A stretch of 64,000 bases of DNA. Origin: Candidatus Obscuribacteraceae bacterium. GTDB taxonomy: Bacteria; Cyanobacteriota; Vampirovibrionia; Obscuribacterales; Obscuribacteraceae. The notes below the pieces were generated by a model. That model was not told the origin of the DNA. It was given only the letters and a program-made list of their open reading frames with translations, and ran no database searches. Both the position numbers and the translations under genes were made by a program. Positions 32,277 to 34,831 of the stretch are shown one piece after another. The DNA lies in contig JBGASG010000004.1 in the NCBI GenBank assembly GCA_044229845.1, forward strand, positions 1 through 64,000. Reading direction: 5' to 3'. Position 1 is the first letter of the stretch; every line of letters begins with the position of its first letter.

Positions 32277-33184
32277 TTGACCAAACTTAAATCGTACTTC
32301 GTAGCGTTGAACGTAGTGCTGGGCGCGGTTTCGTGCGCGTCAGACGGCGCACGACGCGCATGGGCAGCCGAGAACGGCGGCATCTCCGCGACGGAGCGCG
32401 CTAATTTCCAGGCTGCTGCGGAGTATTCACGGCATCACAACGGCGAAGCGACGCTGGTCCTGAGAGACGGTGATGTAGTTTTCGAGAGCTACTACAACGG
32501 CTATGACGGAAAGTCGCCGCATGACTTAGCCAAATAACAATTCGTCAGTTGTTGACTTTGACGAGCGGACTTGAACCGGCGCTAATCTTGTTGGATGGGC
32601 CGCGCGTCGGCAACAAATACAAAACAGCTCTGAACTTGCCGATGATTGCCGCACCGGGAGCCCAGTTCGACTACGGACCGGCCGGACTTTTCGTCTTCGG
32701 AGAATTACTGAAGCGCAAGCTCAATCGCGATCCCGTGCAATTTCTGCGGGCGCGAATTTTCAAACCAGCGGGAATTGATGTCGGCTGGTGGCGCAACGAT
32801 CGCGTCGGCAATCCGTCGATGCCGGCCGGGTGCGCAATGACCGCGCGCAACTGGGCGAAGTTTGGATGGCTGGTTGCCAACGACGGCAAAATCGGTGGCA
32901 GAACGGTGGTCCCGCCGCAGTTTCTTCACAAGTGCTTGTCCGGCACCAAGGCGAATCCCGCTTATGGACTGGGTTTCTGGCTTACCGCACAAGATCCGTT
33001 CGGCACTTATGCCAACCAGCCCCAGATGTTCAAACCACCGGCCGACACGATTGCGGCCGCCGGTGCCGGAAATCAGAGGCTGTTCATAATTCCCTCGCGC
33101 AAGCTCGTGATCGTCCACTTCGGAAAAGAAGACGGCTTTCGCAGCGACGCCTTTCTCTCAGTTCTGCTAACCGGAAAGAAGTGA
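32277..33184 (+). pseudogene. Serine hydrolase (beta-lactamase family) with internal deletion removing SxxK, frameshifted
   Basis: ...SPHDLA(K*) joins out of frame to SQITIRQLLTLTSGL at ~32528-32533; later PGAQFDYG, MTARNWAKFG, YGLGFW, AAAGAGNQ. Confidence 0.8.
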
Positions 33185-33393
33185 CGATCGGCTTAGAAGC
33201 TGGCACCACTCGCGGTGCCACGCACGGTCGCGTCAGCATTAGTTGCCGATCACAATTACTGCGCGAGCCGCGCGCACGGCATCACATTTGATACCACTTC
33301 CTGCCCCAAAAACCGGCCGTCAACCCCTGTTGTCAGTTGCCGAAAAACACGACAGACGGATACGTTTCATCAACCCTTGTTAATCCGATCTGA

Positions 33394-33423
33394 TTGACTT
33401 CACTTTCTGGTCCTTACTAGGGT
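33394..33423 (+). promoter_or_regulatory. Putative sigma70 promoter for the structured leader/M28 transcript
   Basis: TTGACT-N18-TAGGGT. Confidence 0.4.
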
Positions 33424-33473
33424 GAAGGGTACACCTCATGTTTCTCAACCCAAAGAAAAACCAAACCACAGAC

Positions 33474-33680
33474 ACAAAAAAACCGTACTGACCACGCCAA
33501 TCTGGCTTCTGCGTTCAGAACTCTCGAGTAAATCGAGGAGCGGTTTTTGTTGGACGTTTCGGTGGGATCGTTTCCACGCTGCAAGGCTTCGCACTTAGCG
33601 ATGTTTGCGCAGCCTTTGTGGCGCGGTCAAGGGTTCTGAAGGTTTCAACAAGAACCGTTCGGCAATCAAGCCGGACACAG
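33474..33680 (+). ncRNA. Unclassified highly structured RNA leader (multi-pseudoknot candidate)
   Basis: Complementary pairs 33489-33499/33619-33629, 33514-33524/33630-33640, 33538-33554/33644-33660 plus local hairpins; G-U pairs favour the + strand. Confidence 0.55.
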
Positions 33681-33700
33681 CTATCACAAGGAGCACGACT

Positions 33701-34831
33701 ATGTTCCAGGCATCACTTGGTGTGAGCGACGCTTTCGCGTTCGTTCTCATCGTCCTTGCCGCGATTGCTTTTGTCGCGGCATTTCGTTTCCTCCGCCGGA
33801 CCACGCCCATCAGCAAGGTCCACCAGCGGCCCCACCTGCACCTCCACCCCGCCAAGAACTGCAAGTTCGACGAGGAGGAAGTGCGGCGCACCCGTCACCT
33901 GGCTACCCCGCCCATCGACACGAGCAACCTGCCCCCGGCAGATGCCCGCATCGTTGCGGCGATGGCCCAGATCACGAAGGCTGACGTCGAGCAAATGCTC
34001 CGAGAGTTCTCGGGCGAGGTCGACACGGTCGTTCGCGGTCAGACGGTGCGCATCCGTTCCCGCAACACCTTCGGCGGCGACATCATTCACGCACACAACA
34101 AGATCTTCGACTGGTACAAGGCGCTCGGCTTCGAGGTGGAGCTGCAGTCGTACAAGTACCGGGGCAAGACCCTGTACAACGTGATCGCCAAGAAGAAGGG
34201 TTCCAAGACCCCCGACAAGTGGCTCTTGCTCGGCGCCCACACCGACTCCACCGCCGGCGACACCGGTCGTGCAGAGCCGGTCGCTCCGGGCGCTGACGAC
34301 GATGGCTCCGGCACCGTCGGGCTGCTGCTCATGGCGAAGCGCATCGCCGAGCTGGATCTGGGCGTCTCCGTGATGTTCTGCCACTTCTCCGGTGAGGAGC
34401 AGGGGCTCTGGGGCAGCGCGGTGCACGCCGACAAGGTCGCGGCTGAGAAGCTGCAGATCGTCGGTCAGTTGCAGTTCGACATGATCGGCTACTGCAACAA
34501 GCCCGGCAACCGTCTCGACATCCACGACGACGTGGATCGCAACGGTAGCCACTCTCTCGTGGTTGCAGCTGTTCGTGCCGCCAAGCGGTACGCGCTCAAC
34601 CTCAAGGTCGTGGACACCCACAACCGTGCGGTGACGGGTCGCAGCGACCACGCCAGCTACCAGAATCACGGGTACAAGGCTGTGCTCTTCTCCGAGGAGT
34701 TCTCGGACGACGGGTTCAACCCCAACTACCACTCGACCGGTGACCGCGTTGCCTCGTGCAACCTGGACTTCATGGTCGAGGTGATCAAGCTCGGCATCGC
34801 CTGCATCGCCGACCTCGGCGACCTGCGGTAA
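33701..34831 (+). CDS. M28 family metallopeptidase (aminopeptidase-like), N-terminal TM/signal
   Basis: GAHTDS, PGADDDGSG, SGEEQGLWGS, DMIG, SDH, YHSTGD; AAGGAG RBS before ATG 33701. Confidence 0.92.
   Translation: MFQASLGVSDAFAFVLIVLAAIAFVAAFRFLRRTTPISKVHQRPHLHLHPAKNCKFDEEEVRRTRHLATPPIDTSNLPPADARIVAAMAQITKADVEQMLREFSGEVDTVVRGQTVRIRSRNTFGGDIIHAHNKIFDWYKALGFEVELQSYKYRGKTLYNVIAKKKGSKTPDKWLLLGAHTDSTAGDTGRAEPVAPGADDDGSGTVGLLLMAKRIAELDLGVSVMFCHFSGEEQGLWGSAVHADKVAAEKLQIVGQLQFDMIGYCNKPGNRLDIHDDVDRNGSHSLVVAAVRAAKRYALNLKVVDTHNRAVTGRSDHASYQNHGYKAVLFSEEFSDDGFNPNYHSTGDRVASCNLDFMVEVIKLGIACIADLGDLR

What the first reader, a model, noticed from the sequence alone, without database searches (positions are those of the whole stretch)
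33474..33680. 5' leader with three long helices in crossing (a-b-c...a'-b'-c') order: candidate new multi-pseudoknot RNA or switch
Seen: after an A-rich unstructured stretch, TGACCACGCCA (33489-33499) pairs with TGGCGCGGTCA (33619-33629; 10/11). TTCAGAACTCT (33514-33524) pairs with AGGGTTCTGAA (33630-33640; one G-U). GAGCGGTTTTTGTTGGA (33538-33554) pairs with TTCAACAAGAACCGTTC (33644-33660; 17 bp, three G-U). The three 3' strands lie almost back to back and in the same order as their partners, so the helices cross instead of nesting. Local hairpins fill the gaps (CTCGA-GTAAA-TCGAG, GTGGGA/TTCCAC, AAGGCT..AGCCTT, TTCGGC-AATCAA-GCCGGA). ACAAAAAAACCG (33474-33485) is a competing partner for the c strand. 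Nearly all deviations are G-U, which points to selection on + strand RNA. I do not recognise a known riboswitch or ribozyme consensus. Inference: an undescribed structured RNA class or a multi-state regulatory leader.
Basis: partly seen in the sequence, partly recalled or inferred. Interest (0 to 1): 0.85.

Follow-up and report, generated by a model that had tools for sequence, protein, structure and literature searches.

The report
Folded leader of an aminopeptidase mRNA
The three crossing helices are really in the sequence and lie in a long, strongly folded, transcribed leader of an aminopeptidase gene of an uncultured bacterium, but related leaders do not keep them, so they are most likely alternative pairings of one fast-changing leader and not a new class of knotted RNA.

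Summary
The helices are there and beat 1000 of 1000 shuffles. They lie in the predicted 271-nt 5' leader of an M28 aminopeptidase gene of an Obscuribacterales bacterium; one RNA contig joins leader and gene. No Rfam family reaches its threshold. The predicted fold is a nested 123-nt rod closed by helix c, favoured on the + strand. Helices a and b compete with it.

The crossing is not shared. None of 69 orthologous leaders reaches this triple. In this genome 5 of 1138 upstream regions match it on the sense strand and 4 of 1138 on the antisense strand. With the rod fixed, two such extra helices arose in 21 of 16,782 shuffles. No close relative's DNA was available, so covariation of a, b and c is untested.

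What the family keeps is a promoter, a G-poor start and a hairpin near +85 to +105. No modelled state changes access to the ribosome site.

Verdict: a real, uncatalogued structured leader; a multi-pseudoknot class is not supported; a knot in this lineage alone is not excluded.

The parts
33394..33423 (+). Predicted promoter: TTGACT, 18-nt spacer, TAGGGT; start site inferred near 33430
   Evidence: The same hexamer pair and spacing recur upstream of orthologous leaders whose other sequence does not align. The generic sigma-70 scan does not list it. The start site is inferred.
33430..33700 (+). Predicted 271-nt 5' leader of the M28 aminopeptidase mRNA
   Evidence: RNA contig of run X15 covers 33447-34254 in one piece with no differences; orthologous leaders are 126-433 nt.
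33430..33488 (+). G-poor, weakly folded 5' segment
   Evidence: G fraction 0.07 in the first 60 nt; 0.07-0.14 in six of the first seven 10-nt bins averaged over genera.
33438..33491 (+). 17-codon upstream ORF without a Shine-Dalgarno; its stop codon is the first three bases of strand a. Probably incidental
   Evidence: 21 of 70 leaders (10 of 26 genera) have an early ATG, with unrelated and often 1-2 codon products.
33478..33486 (+). Strand c'': early partner of c (33540-33548); closes a 5' multi-hairpin domain in the growing transcript
   Evidence: pairing probability about 0.8 for transcripts ending between 33550 and 33640.
33489..33499 (+). Strand a (pairs with a', 10 of 11)
   Evidence: probability 0.54 only for a transcript ending at 33650 and 0.001 at full length in a nested model.
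33514..33524 (+). Strand b (pairs with b', 11 bp, one G-U)
   Evidence: probability 0.00 at every length in a nested model; forcing it costs 9.4 kcal/mol.
33523..33537 (+). Small hairpin at about +94 to +108, followed by a G/U tract; positional counterpart of a hairpin near +80 to +110 in orthologous leaders
   Evidence: Mean local folding energy over genera is lowest for windows starting at +86; listed as a weak terminator-like site, at chance frequency.
33538..33660 (+). Nested 123-nt rod closed by helix c (33538-33554 : 33644-33660); the predicted stable fold
   Evidence: -58.0 kcal/mol, z -5.9, 49 pairs; antisense -35.9, z -3.1; c probability 0.87.
33619..33640 (+). Strands a' (33619-33629) and b' (33630-33640), which in the rod pair with 33557-33583 instead
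33657..33676 (+). Hairpin just upstream of the ribosome site; overlaps c' by 4 nt; a similar hairpin is kept in genus g13
   Evidence: 7 bp; same-position hairpin helices in 4 of 6 g13 leaders (alignment).
33688..33707 (+). Shine-Dalgarno (33688-33693) and ATG (33701), predicted in a 6-bp local hairpin that none of the long helices touches
   Evidence: SD unpaired 0.33 in all five modelled states.
33701..34831 (+). M28-family (leucyl-type) aminopeptidase, 376 aa, hydrophobic N-terminus, GC3 0.86
   Evidence: PF04389, E 1.4e-31; nearest solved structures are bacterial leucyl aminopeptidases; match in 71 of 104 family genomes; only 11 of 3912 called genes reach this GC3.

Best explanation
The stretch is the folded part of the long 5' leader of an M28 aminopeptidase mRNA, one lineage's version of a leader found across the family. 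The family keeps the promoter, a G-poor start and a hairpin near +85 to +105, but rebuilds the rest quickly. While the RNA is being made, c first pairs back with c'' to close a 5' domain; when c' emerges it displaces c'' and the RNA settles in a nested rod (predicted, not shown). Helices a:a' and b:b' are mutually exclusive alternatives to that rod, not simultaneous pseudoknots; a may form briefly, b probably not. They are most likely incidental or of value only in this lineage. The likeliest job of the leader is to protect the mRNA and to pace transcription or ribosome loading of a well-expressed gene through nested structure (inferred), not ligand sensing through a knotted core.
For: Shown by computation: rod -58.0 kcal/mol, z -5.9, + strand favoured. 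c 0.87, a 0.001, b 0.00 at full length; order of states c'' then a then c. None of 69 orthologous leaders reaches a triple of -66 or a weakest helix of -18.7; 3 of 69 have triple z < -2; mean z -0.2 over all 70. Antisense controls give as many strong triples (4 against 5 of 1138). The 70 leaders fold on average 9.8 kcal/mol below their shuffles on the sense strand against 4.9 on the antisense strand. Hairpin position peak at +86. In genus g36 plus g4 a nested 5' domain (86% of cells paired, 5 of 30 pairs with two-sided change) and a competing downstream helix (82%, 4 of 13 pairs) are both kept. Transcribed with the gene.
Against: The triple is stronger than shuffles (0 of 1000), and the two extra helices have p about 0.001 even with the rod fixed, so selection for them is not excluded. 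ViennaRNA cannot fold pseudoknots; a rough sum of parts puts a+b and a+b+c states below the rod before loop penalties, which I could not compute. The covariation in g36 is modest (13 and 7 of 500 shuffles reach the score) and comes from 10 related sequences. Own-versus-foreign tests across 26 genera show only weak trends (mean z -0.4 to -0.65). The function named is inferred; nothing here tests it. The nearest fetched orthologues are only about 55% identical in protein, so lack of conservation says little about this genus.
Confidence: 0.62

Rival explanations
1. A lineage-specific kinetic or protein-driven switch: a and b were selected as anti-rod strands. They capture a' and b' as these emerge, hold the RNA in an a (or a+b pseudoknot) state and delay the rod, which changes readthrough or decay.
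For: Each of a', b' and c has two partners. The rod, c'' and a states lie within 3.5 kcal/mol (-98.2, -95.8, -94.7) and a reaches 0.54 at 33650. p about 0.001 for two such helices. b is not a sequence copy of its rival strand. g36 keeps two competing helices.
Against: No output found: SD access is 0.33 in all modelled states; no family-wide anti-SD (mean z -0.14); terminator-like sites at chance level; b costs 9.4 kcal/mol; not conserved.
Confidence: 0.22
2. All three helices form together as a triple pseudoknot or true knot that shields the leader.
For: Lengths of 11, 11 and 17 bp meet the criterion for knot candidates (interleaved helices of 10 bp or more) in PMC4829277 (passages). The 3' strands are back to back and could stack. 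Summed parts are competitive before penalties. The 5' tail is weakly folded.
Against: The same paper reports no knots in over 7,000 RNA structures. The 13-nt b-c linker would have to span about 28 bp plus 3 nt, near full extension (helix rise and backbone reach recalled, not computed), which melts the positionally conserved hairpin. The 3' end is on the polymerase while b' and c' emerge. No orthologue has the pattern.
Confidence: 0.06
3. Ribosome-mediated attenuation: a ribosome on the 17-codon upstream ORF covers c'' and a and decides which fold forms.
For: The ORF's last codons are c'' and its stop codon starts strand a; a hairpin and U tract follow.
Against: No SD; no conserved peptide (21 of 70 leaders have an early ATG, products unrelated); A/C-rich sequence is poor in stop codons; no strong terminator.
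Confidence: 0.07
4. A self-splicing, self-cleaving or mobile element, or a separate small RNA.
For: Long helices whose 3' strands would splint distant ends together.
Against: No Rfam match; single copy; no joint or loose end listed in the leader in three RNA runs and one DNA run, and one RNA contig runs through it into the gene (contigs drop rare forms).
Confidence: 0.03

Closest known systems
Long structured 5' leaders that stabilise or pace abundant bacterial mRNAs (for example E. coli ompA; recalled, no call)
   Same: Long transcribed leader with strong nested structure upstream of an SD-led gene.
   Different: Here the 5' end is weakly folded and the rod lies in the middle; no sequence likeness was tested or expected.
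Attenuators and riboswitch expression platforms with mutually exclusive helices (recalled)
   Same: One central strand (c) with an early upstream and a later downstream partner; predicted strand displacement during transcription.
   Different: No terminator, no SD gating, no conserved aptamer, and no second copy before other genes.
ColIb-P9 repZ and related plasmid leaders with long-stem pseudoknots (listed as knot candidates in PMC4829277, passages; leader-peptide mechanism recalled)
   Same: Interleaved helices of 10 bp or more in an mRNA leader; a short upstream ORF.
   Different: Those pseudoknots open the ribosome site and are controlled by an antisense RNA (recalled). Here no helix touches the SD, the ORF is not conserved and the crossing is not conserved.
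Rfam 15 families
   Same: Nothing at gathering score in the window.
   Different: Best hits around the leader score 10-17 bits against thresholds of 37-80; 20 orthologous loci gave one sub-threshold miRNA hit.

Membership tests
Any Rfam 15 family | Reaches the family's gathering score | tested here: not met
   0 hits in the window; 3 weak hits in 33200-33800; 1 sub-threshold hit in 20 of the 69 orthologous loci.
Conserved multi-pseudoknot RNA class | Crossing helices stronger than chance in this sequence | tested here: met
   0 of 1000 shuffles; 21 of 16,782 with the rod fixed.
Conserved multi-pseudoknot RNA class | Same topology in orthologous leaders | tested here: not met
   0 of 69 reach it; 3 of 69 have triple z < -2; 2 of 69 have weakest-helix z < -2.
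Conserved multi-pseudoknot RNA class | Compensatory changes in helices a, b and c | not testable with these tools
   The alignable copies are identical (G001; run X14). Relatives at 73% and 65% exist as proteins only; searches returned no intermediate DNA.
Conserved multi-pseudoknot RNA class | The helices can form at the same time | tested here: inconclusive
   The nested model disfavours a and b; no pseudoknot-aware or 3D model was available; linker geometry is marginal by recalled dimensions.
Riboswitch or attenuator | Mutually exclusive folds | tested here: met
   Three states within 3.5 kcal/mol (prediction only); competing helices kept in g36.
Riboswitch or attenuator | Expression platform (terminator or SD occlusion that differs between states) | tested here: not met
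   SD unpaired 0.33 in all states; terminator-like sites 3 against 2.3 +/- 1.6 by chance; no family-wide anti-SD.
Riboswitch or attenuator | Conserved aptamer across genera or before several genes | tested here: not met
   Model R1 (g36 + g4) matched 11 of 104 genomes, one copy each, only in those two genera; single copy in G000.
Leader-peptide attenuator | Conserved upstream peptide | tested here: not met
Self-splicing or self-cleaving RNA | Spliced, cleaved or circular product | tested here: inconclusive
   No joint in the leader in the contigs of four runs; contigs hide rare forms; no in vitro test.

The most novel reading that the evidence does not exclude
In this lineage the leader has gained two full-turn helices (11 + 11 bp) that cross each other and the 17-bp helix c, so that part of the mRNA population folds into a true or slip knot: a natural knotted RNA, of which PMC4829277 found none among solved structures. 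It would shield the message or time its folding.
Probability: 0.06. Interest if true: 0.88.

Novelty: new member of a known kind. Interest (0 to 1): 0.3.

Why it matters
As it stands it adds an uncatalogued structured leader from a poorly studied bacterial order. It also shows a leader family that keeps its layout relative to the start site while its sequence and helices turn over. That is of modest interest to RNA comparative genomics and a caution that three long crossing helices in one sequence need not mean a pseudoknot class. If the crossing helices did form together, the 190-nt core would be a cheap test substrate for the open question of whether natural RNA knots exist.

Tried and rejected
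Other copies in the genome: none by BLAST, nhmmer or the genome search. DNA relatives of the leader: only the identical G001 copy; the other matches in 61 and 104 genomes were short (19-57 nt) and weak.

A genome-wide class of knotted leaders: rejected. Sense and antisense tails are equal (9 and 7 of 1138 at z < -4; 5 and 4 of 1138). The seven regions scoring above this one each owe it to one long inverted repeat. In a scan of both strands of the whole genome it ranks 23rd of 433 compact triples.

A same-order triple seen by eye in genus g21: weak, invariant, within shuffle range; rejected.

A class of high-GC3 genes sharing a G-poor leader: not significant (27 against 1055 genes, p 0.13). Thermometer: no change from 10 to 55 C in the model. 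Covariance model R1 does not reach G000 or other genera.

Metagenome scans: one search found no relative; one search gave 80 loci, none above 54% identity, and I did not analyse their leaders. The RNA contigs of X17 and X18 start inside the rod (33610, 33649), and the flanking genes have no RNA cover; contigs cannot show ends or levels and the runs were chosen by this stretch, so no weight is put on this.

Earlier-findings look-ups by place and by Obscuribacterales words were empty. Paper searches (listings only) showed no title on this leader.

Full report
Observation. The best crossing triple sums to -66 kcal/mol of stacking; none of 1000 dinucleotide shuffles of 33474-33680 reached it (mean -42.4, sd 4.2). 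The stretch also folds well as a nested structure (z -3.55, 0 of 200 shuffles).

Context. The stretch lies before a 376-aa M28 aminopeptidase (33701-34831; PF04389; nearest solved structures are leucyl aminopeptidases). An identical protein lies in a record titled as an Obscuribacterales bacterium. A match was found in 71 of 104 genomes of the family. I took 70 leaders (this one and 69 others, 26 genus labels). Left out were the identical G001 copy, one paralogue (L029) and four partial matches; three start sites were corrected by hand. The leaders share a TTGACT-like and TAGGGT-like hexamer pair, mostly 18 nt apart; here it is at 33394-33423, which puts the start near 33430 and makes the leader 271 nt. 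The generic sigma-70 scan does not list it, and its top rank is circular, since it was in the training set. One RNA contig covers 33447-34254 without differences or joints (run X15). This supports one transcript for leader and gene, but contigs show neither strand nor ends and DNA may be present in the library.

Not a known family, and single copy. No Rfam hit at gathering score in the window, only chance-level hits around the leader and in 20 of the orthologous loci. No second copy in the genome.

What it most likely folds into. Helix c closes a 123-nt rod of 49 pairs, 10 of them G-U: -58.0 kcal/mol and z -5.9 on the + strand, -35.9 and z -3.1 on the - strand. In this rod a' and b' already have partners. 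In a nested model c has probability 0.87, a 0.001 and b 0.00; forcing c'', a or b costs 2.4, 3.5 and 9.4 kcal/mol. Folding ever longer transcripts gives a succession: c'':c from 33550 to 33640, a:a' at 0.54 for a transcript ending at 33650, then the rod. The SD is 0.33 unpaired in every state, because it sits in its own small hairpin with the start codon. This model cannot hold pseudoknots. A sum of parts for a+b+c is below the rod before loop penalties, so energy alone does not exclude it. Geometry weighs against it: the 13-nt linker between b and c would be near full stretch (dimensions recalled), and each helix is a full turn or more, so the chain must thread. PMC4829277 (passages seen) names interleaved helices of 10 bp or more as knot candidates and reports no knots in over 7,000 structures.

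Is the crossing more than chance? With the rod fixed and only the 5' segment shuffled, two crossing helices both as strong as b arose in 21 of 16,782 trials (25 more in nested order). Among 1138 upstream regions of this genome, 5 reach a weakest helix of -18.7 on the sense strand and 4 on the antisense strand; by z-score it ranks 8th, behind seven long inverted repeats. So it is about a one-in-a-thousand feature in a genome that offers about a thousand tries. That fits chance, though it does not prove it.

Is it conserved? Not in the leaders I could read. None of the 69 other leaders reaches -66 or a weakest helix of -18.7; 3 have triple z below -2 and 2 have weakest-helix z below -2; the mean z is -0.2 (60 shuffles each; unreliable for the shortest leaders). 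These orthologues are at most about 55% identical in protein and their leaders align only weakly (best local z 6.4). The alignable copies (G001; run X14) are identical over the leader, so a, b and c have no covariation test. Two closer proteins (73% and 65%) could not be tied to DNA.

What the family does keep. The leaders fold 9.8 kcal/mol below shuffles on the sense strand against 4.9 on the antisense strand (8 shuffles each). They start G-poor and carry a hairpin of changing sequence whose window peaks at +86; here it is 33523-33537. In genus g36 plus g4 (10 sequences) a nested 5' domain and a competing downstream helix are both kept, with a few two-sided changes (5 of 30 and 4 of 13 pairs; 13 and 7 of 500 shuffles reach the covariation score). 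This echoes c'' against c' here, but it is modest evidence from related sequences. A model of that clade finds only 11 of 104 genomes, one copy each, in its own two genera. Own-versus-foreign tests over 26 genera show weak trends for 5' and 3' partners of the central strand and none for an anti-SD. The outputs were cut; part was reprinted, and the counts come.

Mechanism. Shown by data: the sequence pairings, co-transcription with the gene (weakly), strand bias of the rod, lack of conservation of the triple. Predicted: the folding order c'' then a then c. Inferred: the leader stabilises or paces an aminopeptidase mRNA through nested structure, and a and b are incidental or local alternatives (0.62). 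A lineage-specific kinetic switch (0.22), uORF attenuation (0.07), a simultaneous knot (0.06) and a catalytic or mobile element (0.03) are less likely.

Novelty. The leader is in no Rfam family, and five paper searches (listings only, except passages of PMC4829277) showed no title on it; subscription papers and the supplementary motif tables of large discovery screens were not read. It is best filed as a new member of a known kind, a structured 5' leader, not as a new pseudoknot class. Interest 0.3.

Noticed in passing
G000 genome-wide; leaders L016, L018, L035, L038, L041, L045, L078 and others: A spaced palindrome, CACCA-N4-TGGTG, occurs 285 times against 14 for the reversed control and 8-41 for other spacings; 83 of 285 are intergenic (14% of the genome). 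It sits at +87 to +96 of the M28 leader in genera g11, g18, g19 and g21. It looks like the site of a global DNA-binding protein; a likeness to the NrdR box is recalled, not tested.
   Followed up: partly
G000:C19:400000-497826 and parts of C21: Genes with GC3 above 0.76 (67 of the called genes of 300 nt or more; genome median about 0.65) cluster here; several look like peptidases or salvage enzymes by eye. The M28 gene has the same codon style though it lies far away. A shared G-poor leader was not significant.
   Followed up: partly
window:32190-33184: A PF00144 (beta-lactamase-fold serine hydrolase) gene is in two pieces here; a contig of run X14 has about 120 more bases at 32532, so the window's strain or assembly has a deletion.
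   Followed up: partly
window:35045-35165: A 25-bp inverted repeat with arms about 67 nt apart, between the M28 gene and the Ser/Thr kinase gene.
   Followed up: no
G000:C3 about 141700-141900, C8 about 299500-299750, C18 (several), C19 about 284200-284460: Two families of intergenic palindromic repeats in tandem or inverted arrays, one with a GATATC core and one with a GCCGCCATGGCGGC core; REP-like.
   Followed up: no
G000:C8:153905-154220: Four tRNA-Leu genes in tandem with four different anticodons, 3 nt apart.
   Followed up: no
window:35228-37990: A Ser/Thr kinase fused to a thioredoxin-like domain and NHL repeats.
   Followed up: no
L019 and nine related leaders (alignment A1, columns 61-72): An invariant 12-nt stretch in the g36 and g4 leaders, mostly unpaired in the predicted 5' domain; a possible protein or small-RNA site in that clade.
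   Followed up: partly
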